A stretch of 64,000 bases of DNA, taken from the NCBI GenBank assembly GCA_001661245.1, contig KV454016.1, forward strand, positions 668,648-732,647. The letters run 5' to 3'. The stretch is from Pachysolen tannophilus NRRL Y-2460 (Eukaryota). The notes beneath the pieces are model-generated. The model made no database searches. It saw only the letters and a program-made list of their open reading frames with translations, and was not told the DNA's origin. Both the position numbers and the translations under genes were made by a program. Shown here piece by piece: positions 637-64,000 of this stretch; the stretch's first letter is position 1; every line of letters begins with the position of its first letter.

Positions 637-2163
637 TTATATCTTTGGGGAACCTGGATTAGTCAAGACCTTCTTTGGTCTAGTGATTGGCCACTGGTAT
701 ACATCATCGGATTCAAAAACATATCCATGTTTTTGTAAGAAAGCACTTAAATTTTTTGGACCTCTTGAACCATATGGATATTTCTCTGGGACTGGTGCAT
801 TGTCACTTTCTAAGTAATTCAATAATGGTGTGAATAATGCCCATGAAACTTCCAATTCATCACTTCTAACGAAATTAGAATGATTACTATGTAATACATC
901 CATGATTAAAGATTCATAAGCTTCTGGTAAATAAAAATCTTTATAACGATTACTATAAGTCAAATCCAATTCAGTTAAAGTAGTAGAAGTACTAACACCT
1001 GGTAATTTGGCATTAAGTTTCATATAAATTGCTTCATTTGGTTGAACTCTAATAACCAATTCATTTCTACTAATATTATGAAACATACCACTAGGAACCA
1101 GTTTAAATTGAATACGTATTTCTACTTTACCCTCATTTAAAGCTTTACCAGCTCTCAAGACAATTGGAACACCAGACCATCTTTCATTTTCAATTTCACA
1201 ACCAATGGCAGCATAAGTTACACATTTGGAATTAGGATTAACAGTTTCATCATCAACATATGCTGGTTTAGAACCATCTTCTGATTTTGTATATTGACCA
1301 ACCAAGATATCTTGATTATTTAATGGTTTAAAAGCTTTTAAAACTTTAACTTTTTCATCTCTAATATCTTCAGCATCAAAACTAACAGGTCTTTCCATAG
1401 TTAATATTGTTAAAACTTGTAACAAATGATTTTGCATAACATCACGAATTATACCAATATCATCAAAATATTGACCTCTACCTTCAGTACCAAATGGTTC
1501 TTTAAAAGAAATTTGTACTGAACTAATATGATCTTTATTCCATTGAGAATTTAAAAATTCATTACCAAATCTTAAAACTAATAAATTCTTAACCATATCT
1601 TTACCTAAATAATGGTCAATTCTAAATAATTCCTCCTCTTTCCATATTGGAGCTAATGATTGTGTCAAAGCTTTTGCAGATTCTAAATCATGACCAAATG
1701 GTTTCTCAATAACAATTCTAGCCAAACCTTTTGATTCTGGATGAACATTTTTTTTCAAATTTGTTGCAACAACAGTGAATACTGAAGGTGGTAAAGCCAA
1801 ATAAAATAATCTATGAGATTCTTTAACATTTCTTGAAGTTTCAAATTTTTCAATTTGATTTCTTAATTCAATGTATCCATCATCTTTATCATAAGGTGCA
1901 GAAACATAAGAACATAATTCTAAAAATTTTGAACATTTTTCCTTATCCAGTTCATTTGGTAATTTAAAATAACCTGATATTCTTTCTTTAAATTGAGAAT
2001 CAGATAATTTTGATCTTGCAAAACCAAAAATTTTTGTAGTTGGTGAGAGGAAACCTTCACGATATAACCCAAATAAAGCTGGGAAAGTCTTCTTCTTAGC
2101 CAAGTCCCCTGAAGCACCAAAGACAACAATAGCTGTATTTTCTTTAAATTCAACCTTTGACAT
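637..2163 (-). CDS. ZWF1: Glucose-6-phosphate dehydrogenase
   Basis: GASGDLAKKK nucleotide-binding motif, RIDHYLGK active-site peptide, EKPFG motif. Confidence 0.98.
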   Translation of the reverse strand: MSKVEFKENTAIVVFGASGDLAKKKTFPALFGLYREGFLSPTTKIFGFARSKLSDSQFKERISGYFKLPNELDKEKCSKFLELCSYVSAPYDKDDGYIELRNQIEKFETSRNVKESHRLFYLALPPSVFTVVATNLKKNVHPESKGLARIVIEKPFGHDLESAKALTQSLAPIWKEEELFRIDHYLGKDMVKNLLVLRFGNEFLNSQWNKDHISSVQISFKEPFGTEGRGQYFDDIGIIRDVMQNHLLQVLTILTMERPVSFDAEDIRDEKVKVLKAFKPLNNQDILVGQYTKSEDGSKPAYVDDETVNPNSKCVTYAAIGCEIENERWSGVPIVLRAGKALNEGKVEIRIQFKLVPSGMFHNISRNELVIRVQPNEAIYMKLNAKLPGVSTSTTLTELDLTYSNRYKDFYLPEAYESLIMDVLHSNHSNFVRSDELEVSWALFTPLLNYLESDNAPVPEKYPYGSRGPKNLSAFLQKHGYVFESDDVYQWPITRPKKVLTNPGSPKI

Positions 2164-9459: not shown

Positions 9460-12400
9460 TCAGTTTTCTTGATTTAAAGTATTCAAACCAAACAAGAACT
9501 CAATTTCTCTTCTACCCAATCTTGAAATATTAGCAAATCCTTCTTTATCCAATGCAGAGTTAACAATGGTCCTCTTCTTTTCTTGTAACTCTTGAATTCT
9601 GTCTTCAACAGTTCCCTTGATTAGCAATCTATGGATGAATACCTCTCTCTGTTGTCCAATCCTATGTGCCCTGTCCATGGCCTGTTCTTCCACATAAGGA
9701 TTCCAAAAAGGATCCATGATAATGACATGATTTGCGCACGTCAAAGTTAAACCTACATTACCTGCTTTTAAAGATAAAAGCAATACTCTTTTCTCTGTTG
9801 TACTGTAAAACTTTCCAATAACATGGTTTCTTTGATCAGCAGTCATGGATCCATCATATCTTAGCCACTGTATATTCTCTTTATCCAACACAATTTGCAT
9901 CACATCAAACAATAAAGTAAATTGACTAAATATAAGAATTTTTTCATTTGGATCTTTCAGTAAAATTTCCTTGATTAACTTAATTACCATATCTATCTTA
10001 GCACTTGATTTAAATTCACCTCCTTCTTCTTCTATTAACCTAATTATTTTCTTTTTCTTATCAGTTAATTTCCCAGTAACTTCACTGCTTTCATAGGAGT
10101 TTTCTAAATCAATATCTGAAAGATGTTGATTTTGAACTTTATCAAAAATATCAAAAGGTATAACCTTTGATTCAAGACATTCTGCTCGACAATGTAAACA
10201 TTTTGCTATTCTTCCACCATTATTGGTTTCCTTATCTTGAAATCGTTCAAAAAATGAATCTACACATTCATTACAAATTAAATGGCCACAAGGCGTTAAA
10301 ATGGAAATATTTTCAGATGATGGTGAATCAAAGCAAATAGGACAAGCAAACCCATTACCAATATTGGTGTTGACTCTTCTGACAGTATCAGAATTAAAGG
10401 TTCTAGCGATTGCAGTCTTGCTCTTCCAGTTATTAACAATATTCCTTCTATCACCAATTTTTACCAAATAATTATGACAACAAGCCTGCCTCAACCTTAG
10501 TAATAAAGTTAACATACTACTATAATTTCCAACAGAACCTTTAGAATTTAACATTTTTTCAGCTCTTTGTTTCGAAGAAGTTTCTAATGAAAAATAAAAA
10601 TCATTTTCATATTCATACATATCAACATGATCAATAACAATACTACGTGGTGGTAATTTTAAAATAGGTTGACCATCAATTTCCATATCTTTGGTTCTTC
10701 TCAATAGTATAGCTTTTAAAAGTGCTTGTAATTTTTTCATAGCACGACTTGTATCAAACTCATCATACTTGTCAGTATTCTGTTGTCTAATTGGAAGAAA
10801 AATATCACTTCTAAATTTTTGTTCATCGTTATAGGGCTTGATTTGTAAAAATCTAATCAAAGAATATAATTCATCAATACTATTTTGCATGGGAGTACCA
10901 GACAAGCACCACCTATATTTGGCCTTTAATAAAGCAACTGCCTTCGAGCTCTGAGTCAGTTTGTTTTTAACCCATTGTGCTTCATCAAGAATAGCACGAT
11001 AAAAAACAGCATCTTTTGTAAAAAATGGACTTTCGTACTCTTGGCCTCCACTGTTTGGGTGTGGTAAAACTGTAGATTTCTTAGCCAACTTTGCTTGCTC
11101 AATTGCAAGTTTAAAATGTTTTTTCATTTCTGATGCCAAAGTACCATAAGAAACCAAGACGAAATCATATTTTTTCAAATGCTTGAAAGAAGGTAATTTG
11201 TCTTTGTGATAAATGAAAACTTTGATTGGTGTTTTGATTTTAGACAAGAGTTCTGCTTGCCATTGTTGTAAAAGGGCAATTGGAGCAACTATGAGATTTG
11301 TTTTCAAATTTGGATCCAGAGAAGTATGAGCAAGCATCAAGGAAATTGTTTGAACAGTTTTCCCTAAACCCATATCATCTGCTAAGATACCACCCTTTTT
11401 CACAGATTCTTCCATATCTATAAGCCAAGAAAGACCAATTTTCTGATGTTTTAACAAAGTTACAGTTAAATCTTTAGGCATATCTTTAATATCCTTTTCG
11501 TAATGTTCATCGGGTTTGATTGTGTTTAACAATTGTTGAAGGTTGGATGAGTCATCCGTCATAGTATATACATTCTGAGCATATCCAGTATGTCCATTCT
11601 GTACTTGCTGGTTCATTATTGCATTTTGATACCTTTGCTCGTAATCATTAATATCATTACGATTGTGATTGTGATTGTGATTGTGATTGTGATTGTGATT
11701 GTGTAAAGAAGTTCGAGAGGCCACCATACTACTAAAAGTTAGAAATTTATTTTTTGCTTCCTGAGCCCTAATTTCTAATTCATTGAGTTTAACCTTGTTA
11801 ATTTTCTGATATCTCTCAAGATTGATAAGATGTGATCTTTTAACTTCACGAACTCTATTTATTGTTGGGTCGTTTCCTAAAAGGACTTCCAAAGCCCTCA
11901 TGATTGCTTCTATTTGCCTATCTGCAGAGGTAATATTTTGTCTCAAGTCAATAGCTTTTGATTCCCATGAGTTATATTCTCTCCTCAATCTTTCCTTTTC
12001 TATATATTCATTTCTTAAATTTTCATTATCTGTGGTAGTATTTATGTTCAGTGTTGTTGAAGAAGTTCCAACTCCATCATTAGGATATGAAAAACTACTC
12101 ATGACTTGATCAAAATAAGAGGGCATTCCAGAAGTTCCATTATTGGAATCATATGGAGGTCGCTGAAACTGTTGAGGATACTGCTGTTCTTGAGTAGGTT
12201 TGCTTAAAATTTTCCAACCTGTAATTTCAATATCATCATCACTTTCATCGGAAGTATCTGCTAATGAAATTGAAGTGGGCCCATTATTATTATTATTTGT
12301 AATGTTATACGTATCATTATTATCAGCAACAGTATTATTATTTGGCTGATATTCAAAACCATAAACTTCTGAATCATCTTCATTCGTCAAATCTATTAAA

Positions 12401-15368: not shown

Positions 15369-15980
15369 ATGTCAGGAGCAGCTCTGTATGTATTAATTTA
15401 AAATCAGAGAAAATTGATCTGATCTTGCTGAATTTGAATTTTTTTTTTTGCTTTGCTTTTGGCTTTATTTTATTATTATTAATTTTAGCAAACAAATAAA
15501 TATTCAAATGTTCAAATAAAGATTTTAATTTTAGGAATTCAAGTTACTAACGTTAATGATATATAATGTTGTTGAATGTTTAGGCTTTTCATTTTTTCAG
15601 TCATAGTTAACTGTGTTAACTTATTCTTGCAAGTTTTTTTCACAATCATGTATAGTGATTTGGAATGTGATTATATTAATCCAATTGAATTATGTAACAA
15701 GTTGAACAAATATATCATTCCTGAAGCTGCATTACAAGGATTGCTATCAATATTATTTTTAATTAACGGCTATTGGTTTACTTTTCTCTTGAACCTGCCA
15801 TTGCTTGCATTTAATATCAACAAAGTTTATAACAAAAATCATTTACTCGATGCTACTGAAATTTTTAGAACTTTATCAAAACATAAGAGAGAATCTTTTT
15901 TCAAATTGGGTTTCCATTTGTTGATGTTCTTTTACTACTTGTATCGTATGATTGTCAGTCTTGTTGCTGATGAATTATAA
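15369..15980 (+). CDS. ERV14: Cornichon-family COPII cargo receptor; exons 15369-15385 and 15584-15980
   Basis: [15 protein letters not shown] and [11 protein letters not shown] motifs; intron 15386-15583 with GTATGT, TACTAAC (15545) and TAG restores the frame. Confidence 0.95.
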
Positions 15981-26764: not shown

Positions 26765-29662
26765 ATGGCTTTGACATCGGCAGCTCCTTTTTTAGCGTTA
26801 TTGGGAGAACCTGATGATAGCTTAAAATCATTTGCTTTAAAATCGTTAAATGATGTTGTGGATGAATTATGGGCAGAAATTGCAAATAGCATTACAGAAA
26901 TAGAGGAATTGTATGAGGATGATTCTTTTACAGATAGGCAACTTGCAGCATTAGTTGCATCAAAAGTTTATTATAATTTAGGAGATTATGATTCTTCAGT
27001 AAAATATTCATTATGTTCAGGTGATAAGTTTAATATTGATGATAAGAATGAATTTGTTGAGACAATTGTTTCTAAATGTATCAATCGTTATATTGAATTA
27101 TCACAACAAAAATTTAGTAATAATGAGGTAGTAATAGATGCTCAATTATCTTTAATTTTTGAAAAAATGTTGGAGAAATGTGTTTATGCCAATGAGTTGA
27201 AATTAGCTTTAGGTATTTCATTAGAAAGCTATAGAATTGATATAGTTGAAAAAATCATTAAGGAACATTTGGATAATGAAGAATTGGCAATCAATTTGAT
27301 AAATTATGTATTAACTTGTTCTACAACTGTGATAAGTCATACTCAATTTAGAACAAGTGTATTAAATTCTTTGGTTTTAATACTACTTTCATTAAATTCA
27401 CCAGATTATTTCATTATTTCTAAAATTATAGTCCAATTGAATGATTATAAATTAGCTCATAGAATTTTCACAAAATTATTGAAAAATGATTTGGTATTAA
27501 TTACATTTCAAGTTGCATTCGATTTAGTGAATTCTGCTTCACAAGAATTATTAGATAAAACAATTGAAATTTTATCAAAAGATGAATCTTTTAAACTGAA
27601 TGAAAAAAATTTATCCAAATTAACTAAAATTTTATCTGGTGTACCTACTTGCGATTTGGATATTACATTTTTATACAAAAATAATAATACCGATATCACT
27701 ATTTTAAATAAATCAAAGAATGCATTGGATGGAAGAAATTCAATCTTTCACTCAGCTATTACTTTTGAAAATGCTTTTATGCATGCTGGTACCACAGATG
27801 ATTCCTTTTTCAGATCTAACTTGGAATGGTTAGGAAAGGCTACAAATTGGTCAAAATTTTCTGCAACAGCAGCACTCGGTGTTATTCATAAAGGTAATTT
27901 ATCTGAAGGTCGTACCTTGTTACAACCATATTTACCAGGTAGCAATTCTGGTTCCGCTTTCACAAGAGGTGGTTCATTGTATGCTCTTGGGCTTATATAT
28001 GCTGGACATGGCAGAGAAGTTATAGATTATTTAAGGCATCACGTTGTTGAGAATTCTGGTGGTGCGGGTACCAATGACTCTTCTGAAAATCAAGAACTCG
28101 ATGTAATTTTACATGGAGCTTGTCTTGGTGTTGGTGTTGCTGGTATGGGTTTAGGCTCACAAGAAATATACGAGGAATTAAAAACTGTTTTATATGCTGA
28201 TTCGGCTATTTCTGGTGAAGCTGCAGCATTAGCCATGGGTTTAGTTATGTTAAGATCTGGTGATGAAACTTGTATTAATGATATGTTGACATATTCTTTG
28301 GAGACTCAACATGAAAATATTCAACGTGGTTTGGCAATTGGTATAGCTTTATTGAACTATGGTAGAGAGGAACAAGCTGAACCGATTATTGAGAAAATGA
28401 TTGGTCATCAAAATTCCATATTACGTTACGGTGCATGTTATGCGTTAGCTTTGGCATACTGTGGTACAGGCAATAATTCTGCTATACAAAGATTATTGCA
28501 TATTGCTGTTTCTGATTCATCTGATAACGTCAGAAGAGCATCAGTTATGGCTTTGGGTTTCATATTATTACGTGATTTTACTACAGTTCCAACAATCGTC
28601 GAGTTGTTGTCTGAATCTCATAATCCACATGTTCGTTACGGTACTGCTATGGCTTTGGGTATATCATGTGCTGGACGTGGTTTACCTGCTGCAGTTGAAG
28701 TTTTGGAGCCATTGACCAAAGATCCTGTTGATTTTGTCAGACAAGGGGCATTAATTGCGATGTCCATGATTTTAATTCAACAAAACGAGAAAACTTTCCC
28801 TAAAGTTGATGAGATCAAGAAAAATCTTGCTCTGGTTATTTCCAATAAGAATCAAGATGCTTTGGCTAAATTTGGAGCTGCTTTATCTCAAGGTATTATT
28901 GACGCAGGTGGCAGAAATGTTACTATTCAATTGGAAAATTTACAAACAGGAACATTAAATATGACAGCAATTGTTGGGTTAACAATGTTTTCTCAATTCT
29001 GGTACTGGTTCCCATTGACGCATTTTTTGGCGTTATCCTTTTCCCCAACGTCAATAATTGGTATTAGAGAGGATTTGAAAATTCCAAAATTCAAAATAAA
29101 TTGTCATACAAAACCAGATTTATATGGTTATCCTCCAAAAGTAGAAGAAGCAAAAGAAAAATCACCGGATAAAGTCGCTACAGCAGTTTTATCTACTACT
29201 GCTAGGGCTAAGGCTAGAGCAAAGAAGGCTCAAAAAGCTAAACAAGAAGAAAAAGATAACATGGATATTGATGAAAGAACACCGGAACCACAACTTCAAC
29301 AATCTGGAGGAGAAGTTAAAACAGGAGAATCAAAGGAAAAAACGCCAGAAGATTTACCAAATGCTGTCGAAGAACCAAAAGGTGAGCCTTCTTTTCAAAC
29401 AAATTATACAAAGAAGCCATACCAGATAGATAATATGACAAGAGTAATGCCAGATCAATTGAAGTATATTTCTTTTATCAAAGGCGAGAGATATGTCCCT
29501 GTTAGAAAGTTTAGGGGTGGTAGTGGAATCGTGGTGTTGAAGGATGAGAAACCAGGAGAGCCTGATGAATTTATTAAGACTGTGAGACAGATGTTTTTCA
29601 ATGAAGCTCCAGTTCCAGAGCCGTTCACTTTAGAAGATAGTGAAACCGAAGAAGAGCAATAA
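26765..29662 (+). CDS. RPN2: 26S proteasome regulatory subunit Rpn2
   Basis: NWSKFSATAALGVIHKG, PC repeats, FWYWFPL. Confidence 0.98.
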   Translation: MALTSAAPFLALLGEPDDSLKSFALKSLNDVVDELWAEIANSITEIEELYEDDSFTDRQLAALVASKVYYNLGDYDSSVKYSLCSGDKFNIDDKNEFVETIVSKCINRYIELSQQKFSNNEVVIDAQLSLIFEKMLEKCVYANELKLALGISLESYRIDIVEKIIKEHLDNEELAINLINYVLTCSTTVISHTQFRTSVLNSLVLILLSLNSPDYFIISKIIVQLNDYKLAHRIFTKLLKNDLVLITFQVAFDLVNSASQELLDKTIEILSKDESFKLNEKNLSKLTKILSGVPTCDLDITFLYKNNNTDITILNKSKNALDGRNSIFHSAITFENAFMHAGTTDDSFFRSNLEWLGKATNWSKFSATAALGVIHKGNLSEGRTLLQPYLPGSNSGSAFTRGGSLYALGLIYAGHGREVIDYLRHHVVENSGGAGTNDSSENQELDVILHGACLGVGVAGMGLGSQEIYEELKTVLYADSAISGEAAALAMGLVMLRSGDETCINDMLTYSLETQHENIQRGLAIGIALLNYGREEQAEPIIEKMIGHQNSILRYGACYALALAYCGTGNNSAIQRLLHIAVSDSSDNVRRASVMALGFILLRDFTTVPTIVELLSESHNPHVRYGTAMALGISCAGRGLPAAVEVLEPLTKDPVDFVRQGALIAMSMILIQQNEKTFPKVDEIKKNLALVISNKNQDALAKFGAALSQGIIDAGGRNVTIQLENLQTGTLNMTAIVGLTMFSQFWYWFPLTHFLALSFSPTSIIGIREDLKIPKFKINCHTKPDLYGYPPKVEEAKEKSPDKVATAVLSTTARAKARAKKAQKAKQEEKDNMDIDERTPEPQLQQSGGEVKTGESKEKTPEDLPNAVEEPKGEPSFQTNYTKKPYQIDNMTRVMPDQLKYISFIKGERYVPVRKFRGGSGIVVLKDEKPGEPDEFIKTVRQMFFNEAPVPEPFTLEDSETEEEQ

Positions 29663-34186: not shown

Positions 34187-35575
34187 ATGTCGAGGGTTTT
34201 AGTTTCTCAGTCGAGTCCTTTGTTTTTGAGAAGAGCTGTATTACAAAAGCCTTTTCTTTCTGTTAAAAATTTGTCATTTACTAGTGGTAAGAGGGGTACG
34301 CCGCAGCATCGGATACCAATTCTTAAGTCGAATTTCTTTGGTACTACTGCATTGACGGTTGTTGGATTATGTGTTTTAGCCTATTCTTTAGATGCTAGGT
34401 CTGCTATAAATGAGTATGTTTATTGTCCACTCATTAGACGTGTTACGGATGCAGAGCAAGGTCATAAGTTGGGGGTCTTTTTGATGAAGTACGGGTTATC
34501 CCCAAGATTATTCAACGATAAAGATGATAAAGTATTGGAAGTTTCTGTTTTCGATAAGAAATTAGCTAATCCTATTGGGATGGCAGCTGGTTTTGATAAG
34601 CATGGTGAATGTATTGATGCTCTTTTTGATCTTGGATTTAGTTATGTTGAAATTGGATCGATAACTCCTGAACCTCAACCAGGAAATCCTGAACCAAGAT
34701 TTTTCAGATTACCAAAAGATGAGGCTGTAATTAATCGTTATGGATTTAATTCTGTAGGTCATTGGGATGTCTTGGGAAGATTAAAATTAAGAGCTGAAAA
34801 ATATTTACGCGCAGAAGCTGTTGCTGCTTCTTCTTTAGATCAAAGTTTAAAAGATAATCATGTGACTACCAATGCTTTTAGAAATAATAAATTATTAGCT
34901 ATTAATTTAGGTAAAAATAAAAATGGAGATGAAATTGAAGATTATGTTAAAGGTGTTGAAAGATTTGGACCTTTTGCAGATGTTTTAGTTATAAATGTTT
35001 CTTCACCAAATACTCCAGGTTTAAGAAATTTACAATCTAGTGATAAATTAACAAATTTATTAAAAATAGTTGTTAATCAAAGAGATTTATTAAATGGGAA
35101 TCTTTTACATAGTAAACCACCAATTTTAGTTAAGATTGCTCCTGATTTAACTGAAATTGAAATTAAATCAATTGCAGAATCTGCTAAAGAAGCTAAAATT
35201 GATGGTATTATAATGTCAAATACAACAATTCAAAGAGATAATTTAAAACTTTTAACAACTGATAAAAATTTAATTAATGAACAAGGTGGATTATCTGGAG
35301 CTCCATTAAAGGAAATTTCTTTAAATGCTTTTAAAAAATTAAGAAAATATACTAAAGATTCCGATTTAGTCTTAATTGGTTGTGGAGGTATATCAAATGG
35401 TAAAGACGCTATTGAGTTTGCAAAAGCAGGTGCTACATTTGTTCAATTATATACTGCTTTTGCATATAAAGGACCTGGGTTAGCAGCAAAAATTAAAGAT
35501 GAAATAACCAGTGAATTGAAAAAGGAAAATAAGACATGGATGGAAATTATTGGTCTGGATGACAATGAAAAATGA
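34187..35575 (+). CDS. URA9: Mitochondrial class 2 dihydroorotate dehydrogenase
   Basis: Presequence plus TM segment, [37 protein letters not shown]. Confidence 0.97.
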
Positions 35576-50176: not shown

Positions 50177-50508
50177 NNNNNNNNNNNNNNNNNNNNNNNN
50201 NNNNNNNNNNNNNNNNNNNNNNNNNNNNNNNNNNNNNNNNNNNNNNNNNNNNNNNNNNNNNNNNNNNNNNNNNNNNNNNNNNNNNNNNNNNNNNNNNNNN
50301 NNNNNNNNNNNNNNNNNNNNNNNNNNNNNNNNNNNNNNNNNNNNNNNNNNNNNNNNNNNNNNNNNNNNNNNNNNNNNNNNNNNNNNNNNNNNNNNNNNNN
50401 NNNNNNNNNNNNNNNNNNNNNNNNNNNNNNNNNNNNNNNNNNNNNNNNNNNNNNNNNNNNNNNNNNNNNNNNNNNNNNNNNNNNNNNNNNNNNNNNNNNN
50501 NNNNNNNN
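50177..50508. other. Assembly gap
   Basis: N bases. Confidence 1.
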
Positions 50509-50516
50509 TATATATA

Positions 50517-50548
<32 letters not shown>

Positions 50549-50621
50549 AATATATTTTTTTTTTGTCTTTTAAAAATAATAACCATCATATATATTTTAG
50601 ACAAATAGACATATATACTAT

Positions 50622-53102: not shown

Positions 53103-54761
53103 ATGAGATTTTTAAAAAATAATAACATGAACATACTGTTTATCTTATTGTTTATTTCTCGTGCTTCATGTGAAGAGCAAATTTTGCCTGATGAGAGTTT
53201 AGCAATAGTGCCTAGAATTGATTTTAACGTTTATAGAGGTAATAGCATATTAGATTCTCATAAAGAAAGGAAACCACAACTTTTGAAAAGAGATGGTGTT
53301 AAGGTGACATTAGAGAATGCTCAAACTTTTTATTTGGTGAATTTAAAAATCGGTTCCAATAAGCAAAGTGTAGATGTTTTAGTTGATACTGGATCATCAG
53401 ATTTATGGGTGATGGGTTCAAACAATCCATATTGTTCATCTTCATCTTTTTCCTTATCTAAAGAAATGATACCTAAATTACAAAATTTTACCAATACACA
53501 TTTAAAGATACCAGAACATGGTGATTCAAAATTGAGAACATTTTTACAAAAAGATTCTTTTCAATCTTCTGAAAATGGGATTAATTGTAGTGAGTTTGGG
53601 ACATTTAATAATAAAAATTCCAAAACTTTTAGATCCAATCAAACAGAATTTTTAATTCAATATGCTGATTATACTTTTTCATATGGAGAATGGGGTCATG
53701 ACGATGTTACAATTGGTGGAGTAAAAATTAATGATTTATCCTTTGCTGTGGCAAACCAAACAAATTCGTCAATAAGTGTATTAGGTATTGGACTTGAAGG
53801 TTTAGAGACAACTTATACAGCTGGGAAAAATTATCCAAATTCTTATACTTATGCAAATTTACCATCTAAGTTGGTTCAAAACAAGTTGATTTCTAAAAAA
53901 ATTTATTCCATATACTTGACAGGTTCATCTAATGGATCTATACTTTTTGGTGCTGTTGATCATAAGAAATATATTGGAACTTTAACTACATTACCTGTGA
54001 TTAACACTTTGGAAAGTGAAGGTTACTCCAAGCCAGTTAAATTAGAAATCATCTTAACAGGTATCACGTTAACAAGTAACACATCAGTGGGAGAAGAAAC
54101 AGTGGAGAATATTACATCAACAGCTTCTCCAGCTTTATTAGATACTGGAACAACGTTAACATACGTTCCTGTAGCAGTGATGGAAAAACTAGCTACAGCG
54201 TTAAATGCATCATTTTTACCCTCATTTGGATACTACGTCTTGGATTGTAGTGAAGATACAAATTATAAAAAAACCACTCAATATACAACAGTTGATTTCA
54301 AATTTTCAGGTGTTACAATAAAAGTTCCAATAACAGATTTATTAATCGAAGTTTTATCATTTGGATCCACAGCTTATTGTGCTGTGGGGACATTACCATC
54401 TGGGGACAATAACTACATTTTAGGAGATTCATTTCTAAAATCAGCTTACGTTGTCTACGACTTGGAAGAATTTCAAATTTCATTAGCACAATTTAATAAA
54501 AATTTTCAACCTGGAATCGAAAATATAGAAACAATTGAATCTTCTGTACCTTTGGCCACTTTAGCCACAGATTACTCAAATACTTGGAGCAAAACTGATA
54601 ATTCAAAACCCGCTCTTGCGAAAACTACAGCAACTTCTACAAAATCAGGCTCACAACTTAAAGATTCATCGGCAAACACAATCACAATTCTCAACAACAA
54701 AATTGAAGTTGGAATCTTTTTCACCATGGGCCTTGTACTAATAATAATCGTTACCTTATAG
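53103..54761 (+). CDS. GPI-anchored aspartyl protease (yapsin), copy 2
   Basis: DTGSSDLWV and LLDTGTT motifs, hydrophobic C-terminus; tandem paralog of copy 1. Confidence 0.95.
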   Translation: MRFLKNNNMNILFILLFISRASCEEQILPDESLAIVPRIDFNVYRGNSILDSHKERKPQLLKRDGVKVTLENAQTFYLVNLKIGSNKQSVDVLVDTGSSDLWVMGSNNPYCSSSSFSLSKEMIPKLQNFTNTHLKIPEHGDSKLRTFLQKDSFQSSENGINCSEFGTFNNKNSKTFRSNQTEFLIQYADYTFSYGEWGHDDVTIGGVKINDLSFAVANQTNSSISVLGIGLEGLETTYTAGKNYPNSYTYANLPSKLVQNKLISKKIYSIYLTGSSNGSILFGAVDHKKYIGTLTTLPVINTLESEGYSKPVKLEIILTGITLTSNTSVGEETVENITSTASPALLDTGTTLTYVPVAVMEKLATALNASFLPSFGYYVLDCSEDTNYKKTTQYTTVDFKFSGVTIKVPITDLLIEVLSFGSTAYCAVGTLPSGDNNYILGDSFLKSAYVVYDLEEFQISLAQFNKNFQPGIENIETIESSVPLATLATDYSNTWSKTDNSKPALAKTTATSTKSGSQLKDSSANTITILNNKIEVGIFFTMGLVLIIIVTL

Positions 54762-55338: not shown

Positions 55339-57815
55339 ATGGATAGGTGAGTAAATTTCCATCATTGTTTTATCTTTTTTCTTTATTTAATTTTATTTTA
55401 ATTTAATTTATTTTGATTTTTAAAGATCATATTACTGACGATTTTTTGGTTATTATAATTGTTGCTTTTTTGCCTTTTTCTTTTTTAACCAATTTTTTTT
55501 TTTGATATAGTGTTAATCTGCCACTGATAACTTCAACGAGCAATAATAATGTGGAGGATGATCCTTTTGTCATTTTGCAATTTGGTGATGGACCGCAGCA
55601 GGATGTTATAATAGATTTCCAGCATAATATCAGTAACGCTATAATGGAACATGCGCAACGTATAAATTCAAGGAACAACGGCGAGTCGCCGCCATCTTCG
55701 TCGTTATCGTCGTTATCGTCGTCGGTGGCTCTGCTGGCTCTGCTGGCTTCTTTGGCACCACTGGCACCACTGTCTCCCCTGGTTCTGCTGGCTCTGCTGG
55801 TTCTGCTGGCTCTGCTGGCTTCTCTTGCTCTGTCAGCAGCTGGCAGTGGTAATGGCGGTGGTATTGGTAGCGGTATTGGTAGCGGTATAAATAGTAACAG
55901 CACTAGAAACAGCGATAGTGGTAGTGGTGGTGGTAGTAGAAGTAGCGGTAATGGCAGAAATAATGAGGCCCAGGGATCAATAACGACGCAGCAAAGACTG
56001 GAGAACAGCAATCAAGGAGTAAGAGGAATAGATCGGCCTGCGTTTGATGTTTCATCAGAAGGTGTTTACGGCGGCGCAAATGGAAATCATGGTAGTTTAT
56101 TGGATGATTTATTTCTGAATTATGAAGGTCATAATATTGATTCATCACTTCAAAATACTGGAGCTTCCACAAATAGAAATATTATCTTGACAGTTAACTA
56201 TGTTTATTCATCAGAAACAAGTGATGAGCTGCCGCAACCACAACCACAATCACAAGATATAAATTCTCAATCTTCAGTGGATGGTAATAGAGCTGCTTCT
56301 TTAATTTTACATGTTCCAGATGTTTCTAACGAGCAGGATGATTCAAGTTTACAATCTTTAATAAGATTTGCCACCATAATAGCGTTTAGAACAATTGCCA
56401 TGAATTTACAAAATAAAAATAGAGGTGTTAGTGAATCGACTTTTAAAACTTTACCAATAAAGAAATTATCAGAAATAAAAGATAAAAATTGTCCAATTTG
56501 TTACGATGAATTTTTAGAATATGTTAAAAAGAAAGAAGATGATGTAATCAAAGAAAATACAACTTCAAAAAAAAGGAAAAGAGAATGTGATGAAAATGAA
56601 GAAGAAACATCTTTGAAAGTTAGAAAGACAAATGGAGGTAGCACTGCTTTTAATGTGTCCAGTAATAGTACTCCAAAGCAGCCCGTATATACCCATGTCC
56701 CTGTAACCATGTCATGTGGGCATACTTTTGGACAAATTTGTTTACGTGAATGGTTGAAAGGAAATAATACATGTCCTCTTTGCCGTCACAAGATAAAAGA
56801 AACTAATGGGAATGGTCAAAATCAAGATGTAACTACAATGACTTTACCAAATTTAGCTGGTTTTTTAAGAGAAAATAGTAGAAATACTTCTTTGAACGGT
56901 GAAATTAATAGATTACCAATGTTGGTCATTTCAAATTTAGATGATCCAAATATCACGGCAGAAACTTTGAGAAATAATTTAAGAAACAGTTTAGCGAATG
57001 TACCAATAATTGTAACAAATGGGAATTTACCTATGAACAATATGCCACCTGACTTACATCCTACTAGCTCAAATTCTTCACCTTTGAGCTCAGAAATCAA
57101 TAGACAAAATGTTGGTGTTTCAGCAGGTAGACCAATTGGTAGAGGTCAAAGAGAAAATATTTTAAGACGTATCATTAATACCTTAACTGGGTCTATAACT
57201 GGTGGTAATTCAAATACCTCTAATAATACACTGAACACTGGCACAACTTCTTTTGCTACTCCACCACTACTGTCTTTGCCACTGCTGACCTCACAACTGC
57301 TGACATTGCAGCTGCTGTCGTCGCAACAACCACCGTCTTCAGCTTCGACACATCAAACCTCAAGAGCCTTTAGATATGCAAGAAGAATGGCACAGAATAA
57401 TTTGTCGTCATCATCAATGTCCCTGGAACAACAAAGGCAACAATCTTCTTCGTCGCCACTTAACTCTTTAAGATCAACCTTGTTTAACGTTTCACGTTCA
57501 ACAAGTAATGCTGTTCTTGTAAATAGAGATCCATTATTTCCAATAGGCGTTGCTAGTAGACGTACGGAAACTGGAGTTGAGACAGTAAATATTGATGGAA
57601 GTGAGAACTCAAATGATTATCTCAATTTAGAACATGATTTATTGTATGGTAGAAATGACAGTACCAGAGATACCCGCAATAGGAACAACAGCAACAGTAA
57701 TAGTAATAGAGATAATAGTGGCCAGAGAAATGTTAATAGTCGGGAGGAACGTGCTGCAGGCAGAAGATTTCGAGAAAGACGAAGAAACACTAACCAAGAA
57801 GGCCTGAATCACTAA
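55339..57815 (+). CDS. SAN1: San1-like RING ubiquitin ligase; exons 55339-55346 and 55511-57815
   Basis: Split RING CPICYDEF...HVPVTMSCGHTFGQICLREWL...TCPLCR, LFPIGVASRR; intron GTGAGT/TACTGAC/TAG supplies an ATG; next to a yapsin as with SAN1-MKC7. Confidence 0.85.
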
Positions 57816-58122: not shown

Positions 58123-59925
58123 TTAAGATAGAGATATTCTTTTTTTCCTTTTATACGAGTCAGTGTCTTTTTTGTAATCTTCATCTTCATCTTCTTCTTC
58201 ACTACCGCTCCCACTTTCTTCTTCCAATCTATCACTAGGCCGAGAATTGTTTTTGTTAAAACATTCTGGATCAATATAAACCACGTCTTTACAAAGTATG
58301 GTTATTGTTTTAAAAAATTTTCTCCACTCCAAAGGATCTCCTTTAGTTTTTAAAAATTCAATTTTCCTTAACTCTAAATTGGACAGGACTTTAGATATTT
58401 TAATATTTCCGTTTAATGGTAATTTTTTCCTATCCAAAGTAGTTAAAGTGATATATATAGAATTATTGTTATTTTCTTCTCGGTTTTTAATATTCTTCAA
58501 TAATTGTTGTTCATTATTAGCATTTGTCTTTGCTCCCACTCTATGTAATGAATCAAATAAAGATGATAATAATGATTCTAATGGTAATATAGAAAAAAAT
58601 TTAGTTAACCTATCACCAAATATTGAAATATTTCCCAGATCGAGATGTAAATTTTGATAAAAATCTTTGATTGCATTATTTCTATCTTTATTTATGAATT
58701 GTAATATTGATGGATCTTTTGAAACTAATTGTAACATTTGTCCATCTTTATCATTAGATTCATATAATAATTTTCTTCTTTTTTTAGAATGTTCACTATA
58801 AACTTCTTGAGTTGCTGAAAAAAATTCTTGTGTATGATCATTATCATCATCATCTATTAGACAAGCCATATCATTTACAGGTTGAGAATTTGAAAATTTA
58901 GCCAACGATTGTTGTGAATCACTGTTATTAATAGTATTGAAAACCAGTTCATCATTAGAAGCATCATCAGAAAGACCAATATGTAAATTACTTAAAAGTC
59001 TTGTTGTTAATAGAGTAGTATTAGAACATAAGGTTGAATCACCACTGCTAAATATATTACTTTGATTTACCCATAAATGTTTCCTAATATTTTCCAACAG
59101 TATTCTTTTTAAAGGTTCAGGTTTTAAGATTGATCTCAACAATGATAATATTGAAGGTTCAAATTTATTCCAAGGAGGATCAAATATTTTCCCATCATTT
59201 TGTAAAAAATTTTTAAAATCTGGGTCTTGTAAAGTTGGTTCTTCCCAAGGTGTTTGACCTGTTAAAAGCACATATAGAACTATACCACAAGACCATATAT
59301 CAGCTATAGCTGGGTTATAACCTTTCAATTGAGCCACTTCTGGTGCCATATATGGAGGTGAACCACAAGGTGTCATACAATTTCTCTTTGTACCATCTTT
59401 TTTTTGATAAACTGCTGCAAGTCCAAAATCGGTTAATTTTAAATTCCCATTTTTATCCAATAATATATTTTCAGGTTTAATATCTCTATGAGCAACACCT
59501 TTTGAATGAATAAATTCAACCGATGAAATCAACTGTTTGAAATAAAAATGAGCAATTTCTTCATCAACTCCATAATCAGGTTCGATCTTATCAAAAAGAT
59601 CTCCTCCAACAGCTAATTCCATAGCAATATATAACCAATTAGAATCAGAACCAAAATCCATCACCTTAATGATATTTGGATGAGCACAACAATTCTTATG
59701 TAGCAAAACCTCTTGTCCAATTTGCTGTTGTGTTAACCCACTCCTCTTCGAAGCCTTAACATTAATCAATTTTACTGCAAAACGTTGATACGGCTTGGAA
59801 ATTACATATGCAACTTTAACCAAAGCAAAAGATCCTTGACCTATAGTTCTCTCATACAATACATTTTTGATCTTGGGAAGAGGATCTAGCTGAGATAACC
59901 GGAAAGTCTGATTCTGATTAGACAT
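58123..59925 (-). CDS. CHK1: Checkpoint kinase Chk1
   Basis: GGDLFDKIEPD, HRDIKPEN, DFG, CGSPPYMAPE, LTKFFS and KGDPLEWRKFFK C-terminal motifs; ATG at 59925. Confidence 0.95.
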   Translation of the reverse strand: MSNQNQTFRLSQLDPLPKIKNVLYERTIGQGSFALVKVAYVISKPYQRFAVKLINVKASKRSGLTQQQIGQEVLLHKNCCAHPNIIKVMDFGSDSNWLYIAMELAVGGDLFDKIEPDYGVDEEIAHFYFKQLISSVEFIHSKGVAHRDIKPENILLDKNGNLKLTDFGLAAVYQKKDGTKRNCMTPCGSPPYMAPEVAQLKGYNPAIADIWSCGIVLYVLLTGQTPWEEPTLQDPDFKNFLQNDGKIFDPPWNKFEPSILSLLRSILKPEPLKRILLENIRKHLWVNQSNIFSSGDSTLCSNTTLLTTRLLSNLHIGLSDDASNDELVFNTINNSDSQQSLAKFSNSQPVNDMACLIDDDDNDHTQEFFSATQEVYSEHSKKRRKLLYESNDKDGQMLQLVSKDPSILQFINKDRNNAIKDFYQNLHLDLGNISIFGDRLTKFFSILPLESLLSSLFDSLHRVGAKTNANNEQQLLKNIKNREENNNNSIYITLTTLDRKKLPLNGNIKISKVLSNLELRKIEFLKTKGDPLEWRKFFKTITILCKDVVYIDPECFNKNNSRPSDRLEEESGSGSEEEDEDEDYKKDTDSYKRKKRISLS

Positions 59926-60318: not shown

Positions 60319-61935
60319 ATGATGGATGAGACATTTGAAGGGGACGATAGCTCTGATAGTGGGCTATCGGTTTTTTTCCGAGATAAGCAATCGATTGGTG
60401 GGGTGAGGTTGGATAATCCGAATTTAAGAATATTAGATGAAGATGCAGTTAATAAACTGTACAATTCGAGACATAGCATTGGAAGTGCCGAGAGCCGATC
60501 AGATACAACGGATATAGTTAGAGAATCTAGTTTTAGGTATGAGAAGCTGAAACCAAGTTCAAATGCAAATTTCCATCGCAGGTCTTCTGTTCAAGATTTA
60601 AAGTCTAAATTTAGTACTAAGATAAAGAGAAAGAATAGATTCTCTAGTTTTGGAGCGCCTTCACCTTCATCTTCGTCATCAGCAGCAACAGCAACAGCGG
60701 CAACTGCCGCGGCAGTGGCGAATCGGTCTGATCATGACAATAATGGGAATGATGTCTCTGGTACTTCTGGTGGTACTTTTGGTGGTAGCGAGATGTATCC
60801 GATATATACTGTGCCAACAAACACTACGATGGAAACTTCAAATATGTTTTCTCCAGCAAGTTCAAATTCAAATTCAAATACAGTACATACAATTGATAGC
60901 GGTAAATTATCAAACAATTTAAGAAATCAAAATTTTTGGAAATATCATATCATTTCAATAGGTAAAAATAAAATGTATCTTACAACAAATCCAGATATTA
61001 AACATTTATATTGTAGAAATGGTCCTGGATATTTCATTGACTTATTAATACCAAAAAGTGATGAGAAGGATAAAAAACTCAAACAATCAGAAATTGGTTA
61101 TCGATTGGTTTTCAAGATTGACGATAATAAAGAAGAAGAACCTAAAAGTTGTATAATAGTAACAAAAGAGCCAAATTCCAAAAATTCAAATGGAGATTTT
61201 AAAATATCATATGTATCATTACTAGATATTGATGTCTCTGGAAAATTACAAACAAATAAAAATAATCCAAAATCTTTAAATAACACAGCAAGAGAAGTAG
61301 ATATTCCTGAATTAATGGCATTAGCAAAGAAAGATCTGGAAAATTTGGAATTAAGACAACTTATACCAAATTTTCATAGATATCAAGTAATTAATGATAA
61401 TAATCAATATTTAATAGGTTCTAAACCTGATATTAAACAAAAAAATTCAAATAAATTAAAAATCTCAAATCATGTTTATAAATTAACAAATAAACAAAAC
61501 GTTTATTTCTATAAAGATAAAGATTTACTGGTTAAAAAATTATCTTTAAGAAATCATCAACAACAAGATATAGATATAATAGGATTATTTAGACCACATG
61601 AAACAAGATTGAAAAAAAAATTGATCAAAACGATAAATGCAACTTCAAACACTTTAAGTTCAAATGACGTGGAATTGGATATCACAGGTGAAGCAAGTTC
61701 AGATCCTTATTCACTGAATTCAACATCTTATTATAAATCAGGAGACGGATTCTTTATTCAAAATCCAAAAGATGATTCTCCTAATGATACAAAAATTGGT
61801 TGGATAACCATATACGAAGATCACGATCAAATCTTCAAAGACGGTTTATGGGAATTGGTATTGGGCTACACTTTTGCTATTGGTTTCGAAAGAATAATTG
61901 ATGATTATTTGAAAACAGATTTATATAATTTCTAG
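60319..61935 (+). CDS. Hypothetical protein
   Basis: Long ORF with a low-complexity N-terminus and a globular-looking C-terminal part (YLTTNPDIKH, GWITIYED). Confidence 0.7.
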   Translation: MMDETFEGDDSSDSGLSVFFRDKQSIGGVRLDNPNLRILDEDAVNKLYNSRHSIGSAESRSDTTDIVRESSFRYEKLKPSSNANFHRRSSVQDLKSKFSTKIKRKNRFSSFGAPSPSSSSSAATATAATAAAVANRSDHDNNGNDVSGTSGGTFGGSEMYPIYTVPTNTTMETSNMFSPASSNSNSNTVHTIDSGKLSNNLRNQNFWKYHIISIGKNKMYLTTNPDIKHLYCRNGPGYFIDLLIPKSDEKDKKLKQSEIGYRLVFKIDDNKEEEPKSCIIVTKEPNSKNSNGDFKISYVSLLDIDVSGKLQTNKNNPKSLNNTAREVDIPELMALAKKDLENLELRQLIPNFHRYQVINDNNQYLIGSKPDIKQKNSNKLKISNHVYKLTNKQNVYFYKDKDLLVKKLSLRNHQQQDIDIIGLFRPHETRLKKKLIKTINATSNTLSSNDVELDITGEASSDPYSLNSTSYYKSGDGFFIQNPKDDSPNDTKIGWITIYEDHDQIFKDGLWELVLGYTFAIGFERIIDDYLKTDLYNF

Positions 61936-62069: not shown

Positions 62070-64000
62070 ATGGCAGTATGGGAACAGCTATCTGTCGATA
62101 AAGCACATGTAGCTTATGCTATTATTGGATTTTTCGCAACTTTATTTGCAATTGTATCATTATTTTTAAAAGAGAAGTTATTCATTGGTGAACTGACTGT
62201 TTCCACTGTTGTAGGCATTATTACAGGTCCCAAAGTATTGAATTGGTTTTCACCTAGTTCATGGACAAGTAATTCTAAATATTTGACTCAAGAGGTTTCG
62301 AGGATTATATTAATTATTCAGCTTTTTGCTGTTAGTGTTGAATTACCAAAGAAATATTTAAAGCATCATTTTAGATCTGTTGCTTTATGTTTATTTTTCG
62401 CCATGACATTTGGTTGGTTAATTACAGCGTTATTTATCTTTATTATATTCAATAAGAATTTGAATTTTAATGATGCGTTGTTGATAAGTGCTTGTATTAC
62501 GGCAACTGATCCTGTATTAGCTGCCGCTATAGTTGGTAAGGGAAAATTTGGTCAAAGAATACCTGCTCATATTAGAAATTTGTTATCTGCCGAAAGTGGT
62601 GCTAATGATGGGATGGCATTTCCCTTTGTATTATTATCAACAAACTTGGTTGTAAGATATGGTCATCCAGGAGAAATTATAAAAGATTGGATTTGTGTTA
62701 GCATATTGTATGAAGTTGTCTTTGGTATATTATTGGGATGTATTATTGGAATTGTTGGTAGAAAATTAATCAAATTTTGTGAAAAGAAAAATTTAATTGA
62801 TAGAGAATCTTTTCTTTGTTTTTATATCTTACTTTCGCTTATGTGTACAGGTTTTGGATCAATTTTAGGAGTTGATGATTTATTGGTTTCTTTTGCTGCT
62901 GGAACAGCATTTGCATGGGATGGTTGGTTTCAAAGACAAACTGAAGAAAGTAATTTATCAAATATCATTGATATCTTGTTAAACATGGTTTATTTTCTTT
63001 ATTTTGGTTCAATAGTTCCTTGGGATTATTTCAATGATGCTAGTTTAAATTTGGAGATTTGGAGATTGATATTATTAGGAATTGTAGTTATATTTTTAAG
63101 AAGAATTCCTATTTTTCTTATGTTAAAACCATTTACTCCTGATTTAAGAACATGGAAAGAAGCCTTTTTTTGTGGTCATTTTGGTCCTATTGGAGTAGGT
63201 GCAGTATTTTGTTCAATGGTTGCTACTAGTTCTGTTGAAAAAATATACTTGAAAACCCAAACAATACTTCCGGTAGGTTCAATTGATAATGATGTTTCTT
63301 CTACTATTCCTCATTCTTATTTATTAACAGTTCTTTGGCCAATTGTTTCATTTTTAGTTATGACTTCTATTATTATTCATGGGAGTTCAGTGACAGCTAT
63401 GGTCTTATGCAGTAATGTTAAAAAGATGAATTTTACTATCAGAAACCCTCAAGAAAGTAGTTCTTCTTCAGAAGATGAAGAAGAAAGTGAAAGACAAGTA
63501 TCTGTACCAAATCAAGAAACCCACGGTGAACGTAAAGATCATAATAATAAATTGACCAAAAGGATTAATAATAATACAATGCATTTAACAAGTTTTGCTT
63601 CCAGTTCTAAAAATGACCTGAAACCCAGTGAAGAGATTGAATTAGAAGCTATTCCAATCACTTATGACGAAAATGGGAAAATTAGGAAACCTGAAGTGGT
63701 ATTCATTCAAGGAAACCACTCCATAGTTGAAGACAATAACGGTGAAGTTATAGATGAGTTTATTTATAATCACCACCATAATAACCAACAAGATCAGAGG
63801 AATCATGATTATGATGATGATTCTCCAACTTTTAGGCAAAAGATTTACAAATTTTTCACTAGAACTGATAGCTTTCCTAATTATAATATCAATATTGATG
63901 AAAAAAATAAAAAACAAAACCCTTCATTATCTTTCGATAAACAGACTTTAAACGTATATCAAGTTAACAATGAAATCTATATAGAAAATGACGACGGTAA
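62070..64000 (+). CDS. NHA1: Plasma membrane Na+(K+)/H+ antiporter, 3' truncated by the window edge and absent from the ORF track
   Basis: MAVWEQL start, KEKLFIGE, ITATDPVLA, LSAESGANDG, GVDDLL, GHFGPIGVGA; no stop seen before the window end. Confidence 0.93.
   Translation, partial: MAVWEQLSVDKAHVAYAIIGFFATLFAIVSLFLKEKLFIGELTVSTVVGIITGPKVLNWFSPSSWTSNSKYLTQEVSRIILIIQLFAVSVELPKKYLKHHFRSVALCLFFAMTFGWLITALFIFIIFNKNLNFNDALLISACITATDPVLAAAIVGKGKFGQRIPAHIRNLLSAESGANDGMAFPFVLLSTNLVVRYGHPGEIIKDWICVSILYEVVFGILLGCIIGIVGRKLIKFCEKKNLIDRESFLCFYILLSLMCTGFGSILGVDDLLVSFAAGTAFAWDGWFQRQTEESNLSNIIDILLNMVYFLYFGSIVPWDYFNDASLNLEIWRLILLGIVVIFLRRIPIFLMLKPFTPDLRTWKEAFFCGHFGPIGVGAVFCSMVATSSVEKIYLKTQTILPVGSIDNDVSSTIPHSYLLTVLWPIVSFLVMTSIIIHGSSVTAMVLCSNVKKMNFTIRNPQESSSSSEDEEESERQVSVPNQETHGERKDHNNKLTKRINNNTMHLTSFASSSKNDLKPSEEIELEAIPITYDENGKIRKPEVVFIQGNHSIVEDNNGEVIDEFIYNHHHNNQQDQRNHDYDDDSPTFRQKIYKFFTRTDSFPNYNINIDEKNKKQNPSLSFDKQTLNVYQVNNEIYIENDDG

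What the first reader, a model, noticed from the sequence alone, without database searches (positions are those of the whole stretch)
62193..62195. Non-standard genetic code: CTG falls at Ala/Ser positions in conserved proteins (probable CUG=Ala)
Seen in the sequence: CTG is rare in conserved genes. Cases I located: NHA1 IGE-CTG-TV (62193), ZWF1 QFK-CTG-V (1099-1101) and NE-CTG-D (1948-1950), URA9 IIG-CTG-D (35555), RPN2 NLA-CTG-VISNK (28832), ULS1 KNK-CTG-TQ (10957-10959), CHK1 KRI-CTG-LE (59098-59100). Recalled family knowledge: Nha1 has GE[A/S]TV, S. cerevisiae Zwf1 has QYKAV and GEAD, human DHODH has IGAD, and kinases usually have R-x-[T/S]. Leu fits these poorly. Ala fits most of them, and Ser fits CHK1 and RPN2 better. 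ERV14 N-CTG-P (15795) is usually Leu or another hydrophobic residue, which disfavours Ser. Inference: CUG=Ala as described for Pachysolen/Nakazawaea (NCBI table 26), so the supplied ORF translations are probably wrong at these codons. The code itself is known if the organism belongs to that clade.
Basis: partly seen in the sequence, partly recalled or inferred. Interest (0 to 1): 0.8.

Follow-up and report, generated by a model that had tools for sequence, protein, structure and literature searches.

The report
Known CUG-to-alanine yeast genetic code
This stretch comes from a budding yeast whose public annotation already reads the codon CTG as alanine instead of leucine, a code change described in 2016, so the finding is correct but not new.

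Summary
The flagged CTG (62193-62195) is real and in frame in an Nha1-like antiporter (G-E-CTG-T-V).

The decisive result is an exact look-up.
- 10 of 16 window ORFs translated with NCBI table 26 (CTG=Ala) are letter-for-letter in NCBI/UniRef.
- 0 of 6 are found under table 12 (Ser) and 0 of 6 under the standard code.
- The depositor therefore already annotated this genome as CUG=Ala.

My own ortholog tally used 10 usable CTG columns in four proteins.
- It rejects Leu and 12 other amino acids (0 of 5000 matched resamples each) and disfavours Thr (0.0056).
- It cannot separate Ala from Ser (0.061 against 0.064).
- The columns are mixed. Nha1 has Ala in 117 of 120 homologues, Chk1 has Thr/Ser, and Uls1 has Leu as its commonest residue.
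- CTG sits at more variable sites than other codons.

Published genome-wide data for Pachysolen tannophilus show the same mixed pattern, and mass spectrometry there shows Ala. The tRNA(CAG) gene could not be checked: no genome is held and the window has no tRNA.

Verdict: a known code, correctly inferred, on evidence that this window alone cannot make decisive. Low interest.

The parts
62193..62195 (+). Flagged CTG codon, residue 42 of the Nha1-like antiporter (G-E-CTG-T-V)
   Evidence: In frame. The homologue column has Ala 117 and Ser 3 of 120.
62070..63998 (+). Nha1-like Na+/H+ antiporter ORF, open at the 3' end of the window
   Evidence: Pfam Na_H_Exchanger 1.5e-56 and Nha1_C.
1099..1101 (-). 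CTG, residue 355 of glucose-6-phosphate dehydrogenase
   Evidence: The column is variable: D35 P20 K13 E13 S13 R10 A10. The table-26 translation of this ORF is in NCBI/UniRef.
1948..1950 (-). CTG, residue 72 of glucose-6-phosphate dehydrogenase
   Evidence: The column is variable, G18 A17 S13 E12 with 28 gaps.
28832..28834 (+). CTG, residue 690 of Rpn2
   Evidence: Ser in RPN2 chains and Lys in PSMD1 chains. The table-26 translation is in NCBI/UniRef.
10957..10959 (-). CTG, residue 655 of the Uls1-like SNF2/RING protein (helicase motif II region)
   Evidence: Column: L51 N15 V12 S11 K10 F5 A4 M4 of 120.
59098..59100 (-). CTG, residue 276 of the Chk1-like kinase
   Evidence: Column: T54 S44 N6 D5 G4 K3 L1 R1 A1 of 119. 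The table-26 translation is in NCBI/UniRef.
58384..58386 (-). CTG, residue 514 of the Chk1-like kinase
   Evidence: Ala is the commonest residue, 44 of 109 residues present.
35555..35557 (+). CTG, residue 457 of class-2 dihydroorotate dehydrogenase
   Evidence: In frame. The homologue column was not reached by the alignments shown.
15795..15797 (+). CTG in Erv14/cornichon exon 2 (L-L-N-CTG-P)
   Evidence: Aligned to Leu (ERV14 chain), Met (CNIH1) and Ile (CNIH2).
55728..55832 (+). 9-nt repeat (GCT CTG CTG and variants) at the N-terminus of a RING-finger protein. It holds 16 of the window's CTG codons and gives an Ala-rich tract under table 26.

Best explanation
The window comes from a budding yeast of the CUG-Ala lineage (order Alaninales: Pachysolen, Nakazawaea, Peterozyma), most likely Pachysolen tannophilus itself. 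In that lineage a tRNA-Ala with a mutated anticodon (CAG) reads CUG as alanine (NCBI table 26).

Shown here:
- The CTG codons are in frame.
- They do not behave like Leu codons.
- The public protein records for this DNA carry Ala at them.

Taken from the literature:
- The tRNA mechanism.
- The mass-spectrometric proof.

Inferred:
- The species name.
- After the reassignment, CTG codons arose anew by point mutation at sites that tolerate Ala. This would explain why they sit at variable columns, and at columns where relatives have Leu, Pro or Gln (one-base neighbours of CTG).
For: (1) Exact look-ups.
- 10 of 16 ORFs translated by table 26 are in NCBI/UniRef/nr on a contig of 1,128,252 bp. They are G6PD, Rpn2, ThrRS, Chk1, Nar1-like, Hri1, an RRM protein, PI31-like, Get2 and DUF1689, and together they hold 26 CTG codons.
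- 0 of 6 match under table 12 and 0 of 6 under table 1.

(2) Nha1 column at the flagged codon: Ala 117, Ser 3, Leu 0 of 120.

(3) Profile tally over 2,197 aligned columns of four proteins.
- For the 10 usable CTG columns the log-odds are Ser 4.3, Ala 2.9 and Leu -12.6.
- 55 of 59 control codons recover their own amino acid.

(4) Entropy-matched resampling of 15 amino acids (C, F, H, W and Y were not tested).
- Only Ala (0.061) and Ser (0.064) are not rejected.
- Thr scores 0.0056, and Leu and 11 others 0 of 5000.

(5) Trees place the query outside the well-supported Ser1 crown (100), the Ser2 pair (98), the Leu1 group (99) and the Ogataea/Brettanomyces/C. boidinii group (100).

(6) Literature on P. 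tannophilus.
- PMC4937558 (abstract, section 5 and passages read): 907 CUG sites are fully supported by fragment ions, and 97.2% of them are Ala. [quoted passage not shown]
- PMC5951914 supplement: 243 of 256 CUG sites are Ala (0.949).
- Its BLAST table for ctg gives A 167.5, L 87.3, P 53.1, Q 40.1, K 30.6 and S 23.8 of 554. This is the same mixed pattern seen here, and genome-wide it does separate Ala from Ser.

(7) CTG density. The window has 91 CTG in 29 ORFs (3.1 per ORF). The published figure is 16,824 in 5,288 genes.
Against: - Within this window the column tally slightly prefers Ser to Ala (4.3 against 2.9).
- The observed LL(A)-LL(S) of -1.43 lies at the 4th percentile of true-Ala samples and the 98th percentile of true-Ser samples, so neither fits well.
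- Only 2 of the 10 deep columns have Ala as commonest residue. One has Leu (Uls1-655), and Vps26-107 is Asp in all 5 solved homologues shown.
- 6 of 16 ORFs were not found under table 26 (Vps26, DHODH, Uls1-like, Air2-like, RING protein, 60319-61935). Different gene models are the likely reason, but this was not shown.
- No tRNA(CAG) gene could be examined.
- The species name rests on inference. No named Ala-clade sequence was in my homologue sets.
Confidence: 0.93

Rival explanations
1. CUG is read as serine (NCBI table 12), as in the Candida (Ser1) or Ascoidea/Saccharomycopsis (Ser2) clades.
For: - Ser has the highest summed log-odds at the 10 CTG columns (4.3 against 2.9 for Ala) and is not rejected by resampling (0.064).
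- Chk1-276 is Thr/Ser in 98 of 119 homologues.
- Rpn2-690 is Ser in the RPN2 chains.
Against: - 0 of 6 ORFs are in the public collection as table-12 translations, while 4 of the same 6 are there as table-26 translations.
- The Nha1 column is Ala 117 against Ser 3.
- Several CTG codons sit in hydrophobic settings, namely Erv14 (L/M/I) and Uls1-655 (L/V/M/F in 72 of 120).
- The query lies outside the supported Ser1 crown and the Ser2 pair in the trees.
- LL(A)-LL(S) is higher than in 98% of true-Ser samples.
Confidence: 0.03
2. Standard code: CUG is leucine, and the odd columns are chance.
For: - Uls1-655 has Leu as commonest residue (51 of 120).
- The Erv14 site is Leu in the ERV14 chain.
- The 9-nt repeat in the RING protein would give a plausible Leu/Ala-rich hydrophobic segment.
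Against: - Summed log-odds for Leu are -12.6 at the CTG columns. The other Leu codons score positive in the three-protein tally (CTA 15.5 with n=10, CTT 30.3 with n=28).
- 0 of 5000 entropy-matched true-Leu samples score as low.
- 0 of 6 standard-code translations are in the public collection.
Confidence: 0.01
3. Mixed or ambiguous decoding: CUG gives mostly Ala but with a substantial share of another residue, as described for Ser/Leu in Ascoidea asiatica.
For: - The columns at CTG sites are unusually variable (mean entropy 2.93 bits against 1.72 for all other codons), which would suit sites that tolerate more than one residue.
- Dual decoding is known in another yeast (PMC6041473, abstract seen in the listing).
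Against: - Published mass spectrometry for P. tannophilus finds 97.2% Ala, with deviations no larger than at AUG (PMC4937558 section 5).
- A second study finds 243 of 256 sites Ala.
- Nothing in the window can measure ambiguity.
Confidence: 0.03

Closest known systems
NCBI genetic code table 26 (Pachysolen tannophilus nuclear code; CUG-Ala clade / order Alaninales)
   Same: - CTG codons are not at Leu-like columns.
- The public records of this DNA carry Ala at 26 CTG codons in 10 ORFs.
- CTG density matches the published figure, and the columns show the same mixed pattern, with Leu/Pro/Gln neighbours beside Ala.
   Different: Nothing found that differs. The tRNA-Ala(CAG) gene and protein-level decoding could not be examined for this window.
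NCBI table 12 (CUG-Ser1, Candida clade) and the CUG-Ser2 clade (Ascoidea, Saccharomycopsis)
   Same: - The same codon has been taken away from Leu.
- Some CTG columns here are Ser/Thr-rich (Chk1-276, Rpn2-690).
   Different: - No table-12 translation of this DNA is on record (0 of 6).
- The query is outside both Ser clades in the trees.
- The most conserved CTG column is Ala (Nha1, 117 of 120).

Membership tests
CUG-Ala yeasts (NCBI table 26) | CUG translated as alanine at the protein level (mass spectrometry) | not testable with these tools
   Only literature is available. It gives 97.2% of 907 fully supported sites (PMC4937558 section 5) and 243 of 256 sites (PMC5951914 supplement), both for P. 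tannophilus. Four tryptic peptides from this window were not found in the PMC5951914 supplements (0 of 4). The supplements of PMC4937558 could not be read.
CUG-Ala yeasts (NCBI table 26) | A tRNA with anticodon CAG and alanine identity (G3:U70), derived from a tRNA-Ala | not testable with these tools
   No whole genome is held. ARAGORN finds 0 tRNA genes in the window, with or without the intron option. 1,215 bases of the window read N.
CUG-Ala yeasts (NCBI table 26) | CTG codons do not sit at conserved Leu columns | tested here: met
   LL(Leu) is -12.6 over 10 columns. 0 of 5000 matched true-Leu samples score as low. One column (Uls1-655) does have Leu as commonest residue.
CUG-Ala yeasts (NCBI table 26) | CTG columns fit Ala better than Ser | tested here: inconclusive
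   Ser scores 4.3 against Ala 2.9. The own-residue tests give 0.061 for Ala and 0.064 for Ser. Genome-wide published data do separate them: A 167.5 against S 23.8 of 554.
CUG-Ala yeasts (NCBI table 26) | Phylogenetic place in the Ala clade (Pachysolen, Nakazawaea, Peterozyma) | tested here: inconclusive
   No named Ala-clade protein was in the sets. The query plus an unnamed 60-63% relative form a 99% clade in the two-gene tree. That grouping is not recovered in the Uls1-only tree. The query lies outside all named, well-supported clades, but the backbone supports are only 13-57.
CUG-Ala yeasts (NCBI table 26) | Public annotation of the genome uses CTG=Ala | tested here: met
   10 of 16 ORFs are exact matches under table 26, 0 of 6 under table 12 and 0 of 6 under table 1.
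CUG-Ser yeasts (NCBI table 12) | Membership of the Ser1 or Ser2 clade, and Ser at CTG in public records | tested here: not met
   The query is outside the Ser1 crown (100) and the Ser2 pair (98). 0 of 6 table-12 translations are on record.

The most novel reading that the evidence does not exclude
Decoding of CUG in this strain might not be purely Ala. The run of 16 CTG codons within about 35 codons at the start of the RING-finger gene (55728-55832) could also act as a translational throttle that depends on the supply of the tRNA that reads CUG. I recall tRNA-Ala(CAG) as single-copy, but no call here confirms that. Neither idea is excluded by my data, and neither is supported beyond the oddity of the repeat and the high variability of CTG columns.
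Probability: 0.04. Interest if true: 0.45.

Novelty: already known. Interest (0 to 1): 0.1.

Why it matters
The consequence is practical rather than new biology. Any translation of this window by the standard or bacterial table puts Leu at 91 or more positions where the cell puts Ala. That includes a conserved membrane-helix Ala in the Nha1-like antiporter. All ORFs from this genome should be read with table 26.

The case also shows the limit of the method. A single 64-kb window gave about 10 usable CTG columns. That is enough to reject Leu but not enough to tell Ala from Ser.

Tried and rejected
- Whole-genome search for the tRNA(CAG) gene: no genome is held. There is no tRNA in the window.
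- Earlier notes of this scan: none for this genome.
- Solved-structure alignments (5 of 10 searches used) give only one to five homologues per column.
  - G6PD column 355 is R or D.
  - Vps26-79 is F/Y/S/N and Vps26-107 is D in all five.
  - The DHODH alignments stop before the CTG.
- Pfam scan of 13 further short ORFs: only a weak CFEM hit, and no extra conserved small gene with a CTG codon.
- Search for L at conserved-Ala columns in the nearest unnamed relatives. The idea was that standard-code predictions of a CUG-Ala relative would show this. Across the four proteins checked (two nearest relatives and two further homologues), one case turned up (P0125, Chk1 column 406, where 95 others have Ala). 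That is too few to count.
- The low-complexity CTG repeats read plausibly under Ala, Ser and Leu alike, so they are not informative.
- Sequencing runs: names are coded and no RNA holder is listed. Nothing was laid.
- Peptide look-up in the supplements of PMC5951914: 0 of 4 peptides found.
- Supplements of PMC4937558 are not readable. Riley et al. 2016 is not held by DOI, and I did not try its PMC id.
- A literature value for the GC content of Pachysolen was not found. My figure of about 30% is recalled only.

Full report
**What is there.** The window is AT-rich (GC 0.28-0.31). It carries 29 ORFs of 150 aa or more with budding-yeast housekeeping content: G6PD, Nar1-like, Vps26, an SNF2/RING helicase, Hri1, Rpn2, class-2 DHODH, Get2, ThrRS, a Chk1-like kinase and an Nha1-like antiporter. 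The 29 ORFs hold 91 CTG codons out of 13,684. That is more than CTC (21) or CTA (48), and 29 of the 91 lie in one RING-finger gene.

**The decisive result.** I translated 16 ORFs with table 26 (CTG=Ala), and six of them also with tables 12 (Ser) and 1 (Leu). I then asked whether each exact sequence exists in the public protein collection.
- Ten of the 16 table-26 translations are present in NCBI/UniRef/nr, all on one contig of 1,128,252 bp.
- None of the six table-12 and none of the six table-1 translations is present.
- The ten matched ORFs contain 26 CTG codons.
- The six ORFs found under no code probably have other gene models. This was not shown.

Whoever deposited this genome therefore annotated it as CUG=Ala. 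The finding concerns an organism already filed under the known code.

**Independent test in the window.** I masked CTG as X and collected homologues for four proteins:
- Nha1-like: 120 homologues, from a 'longer' search, so mostly filamentous ascomycetes.
- Chk1-like: 119 yeast orthologues.
- Uls1-like: 120 homologues.
- G6PD: 150 representatives clustered at 50% identity.

I aligned them to the query with phmmer. These four proteins hold 12 CTG codons. Two were dropped because fewer than half of the homologues align there (Nha1-517, Uls1-291). The other ten columns are heterogeneous:

| Column | Residues in homologues |
|---|---|
| Nha1-42 | A117 S3 |
| Chk1-276 | T54 S44 |
| Chk1-327 | T28 A14 S10 |
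| Chk1-430 | R33 |
| Chk1-514 | A44 E18 D15 |
| Uls1-535 | E26 K18 T13 |
| Uls1-655 | L51 N15 V12 S11 |
| Uls1-988 | E40 S18 K14 |
| G6PD-72 | G18 A17 S13 |
| G6PD-355 | D35 P20 |

Solved structures add the following:
- Erv14: L/M/I.
- Vps26-79: F/Y/S/N, and Vps26-107: D in all five.
- Rpn2-690: S or K.

**Statistics.** I ran a Codetta-like log-odds tally over 2,197 columns.
- It recovers the standard residue for 55 of 59 control codons. The four failures have only 1 to 5 columns each.
- For CTG it gives Ser 4.3, Ala 2.9, Asn -0.2, Thr -0.4 and Leu -12.6.
- CTG columns are much more variable than the rest. Mean entropy is 2.93 bits, against 1.72 for all other codons, 1.59 for Ala codons, 2.13 for Ser codons and 1.37 for the other Leu codons.

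I then resampled columns matched for entropy, 5000 draws for each of 15 amino acids.
- Only Ala (0.061) and Ser (0.064) are not rejected.
- Thr scores 0.0056. Leu and eleven others score 0.
- The Ala-minus-Ser contrast of -1.43 falls in the tail of both the true-Ala (0.040) and the true-Ser (0.019) distributions.

So this window rejects Leu firmly but cannot decide between Ala and Ser. One caveat applies: control columns were aligned with their residue known, while CTG was X.

**Placement.** I built a two-gene tree (Chk1 plus Uls1, 1,185 columns) and a Uls1 tree with 25 taxa.
- The query lies outside the Ser1 crown (100), the Ser2 pair Ascoidea/Saccharomycopsis (98), the Leu1 group (99) and the Ogataea/Brettanomyces/C. 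boidinii group (100).
- The backbone is unresolved, with supports of 13-57.
- The query pairs with an unnamed relative at 60-63% identity in the two-gene tree (99). The Uls1-only tree does not recover that pairing.
- The clade labels follow PMC5951914 (passages) and my own knowledge.

This fits a separate lineage such as the Ala clade but does not prove it.

**Literature.**
- PMC4937558 (abstract, section 5 and passages read). P. tannophilus reads CUG as Ala through an anticodon-mutated tRNA-Ala. Of 907 CUG sites fully supported by fragment ions, 97.2% are Ala. There are 16,824 CUG codons in 5,288 genes, or 3.2 per gene, against 3.1 per ORF in this window.
- PMC5951914 (passages and two supplementary files). 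The Ala clade holds Pachysolen, Nakazawaea and Peterozyma. Mass spectrometry gives 243 of 256 CUG sites as Ala.
- The same paper's BLAST table for ctg in P. tannophilus reads A 167.5, L 87.3, P 53.1, Q 40.1, K 30.6 and S 23.8 of 554 ('largest 30%').

That genome-wide picture matches what I see. Ala is the largest class, but it is a minority, with many columns at Leu, Pro and Gln. I read these as one-base neighbours of CTG, from which new CTG codons arose after the reassignment (inference). With 554 sites Ala and Ser separate clearly. With 10 they do not.

**What could not be done.** No genome is held, the window has no tRNA gene and 1,215 bases read N. The supplements of PMC4937558, which may list peptides covering CTG sites of this window, could not be read. 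Four peptides from this window were absent from the PMC5951914 supplements.

**Verdict.** The codons are real and the interpretation (CUG=Ala, table 26) is right, but it is already the annotation of record and a published code. Nha1 is a true conserved-Ala site and Chk1 and Rpn2 are Ser/Thr-type sites. The two G6PD sites are variable, the Uls1 site is mostly Leu in relatives, and the DHODH site is unchecked. Novelty: already known. Interest: low.

Noticed in passing
window 55644-57815 (+), repeat at 55728-55832: This RING-finger protein holds 29 of the window's 91 CTG codons. Its N-terminus is a 9-nt repeat (GCT CTG CTG, with variants GCT TCT TTG, GCA CCA CTG and GTT CTG CTG). The repeat reads as an Ala-rich tract under table 26 and as a hydrophobic Leu/Ala segment under the standard code. 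The table-26 translation of this ORF is not in the public collection.
   Followed up: partly
window 15370-15590 (+): Erv14 appears to have a short first exon (ATG TCA GGA GCA GCT CT), followed by GTATGT, a TACTAAC branch site at about 15545 and an AG at about 15584. On that reading a second CTG codon is split CT|G across the intron. The splice sites were read by eye only.
   Followed up: partly
window 20506-20790, 24560-24873, 41636-41918, 50177-50508 (and one N at 23449): Four masked runs of 283-332 N lie between genes. The 'ORF' 50131-50589 (-) is an artefact of one of them. Any tRNA gene lying there would be invisible to the scans.
   Followed up: no
window 8796-8798 (-), Vps26 residue 107: This CTG codon sits where all five solved Vps26 homologues shown have Asp (T-F-D-F-N/E-F). 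It is the least Ala-like of the conserved columns.
   Followed up: partly
window 50622-52427 (+) and 53103-54761 (+): These are two tandem yapsin-like aspartyl protease genes (Pfam Asp). By eye, one CTG of the first (residue 396) lines up with Ala in the second, and another (residue 45) with Asp.
   Followed up: no
P0125 (unnamed nearest Chk1 relative, 63% identity), Chk1 column 406: The relative has Leu where 95 other homologues have Ala and the window has Ser. If that protein was predicted with the standard code, this could be a CTG=Ala codon in a second species of the clade. It is a single case.
   Followed up: partly
window 37376-37861 (+): The coatomer-epsilon (Sec28-like) ORF matches only profile positions 131-289 of 290. 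An upstream exon or a different start is therefore likely.
   Followed up: no
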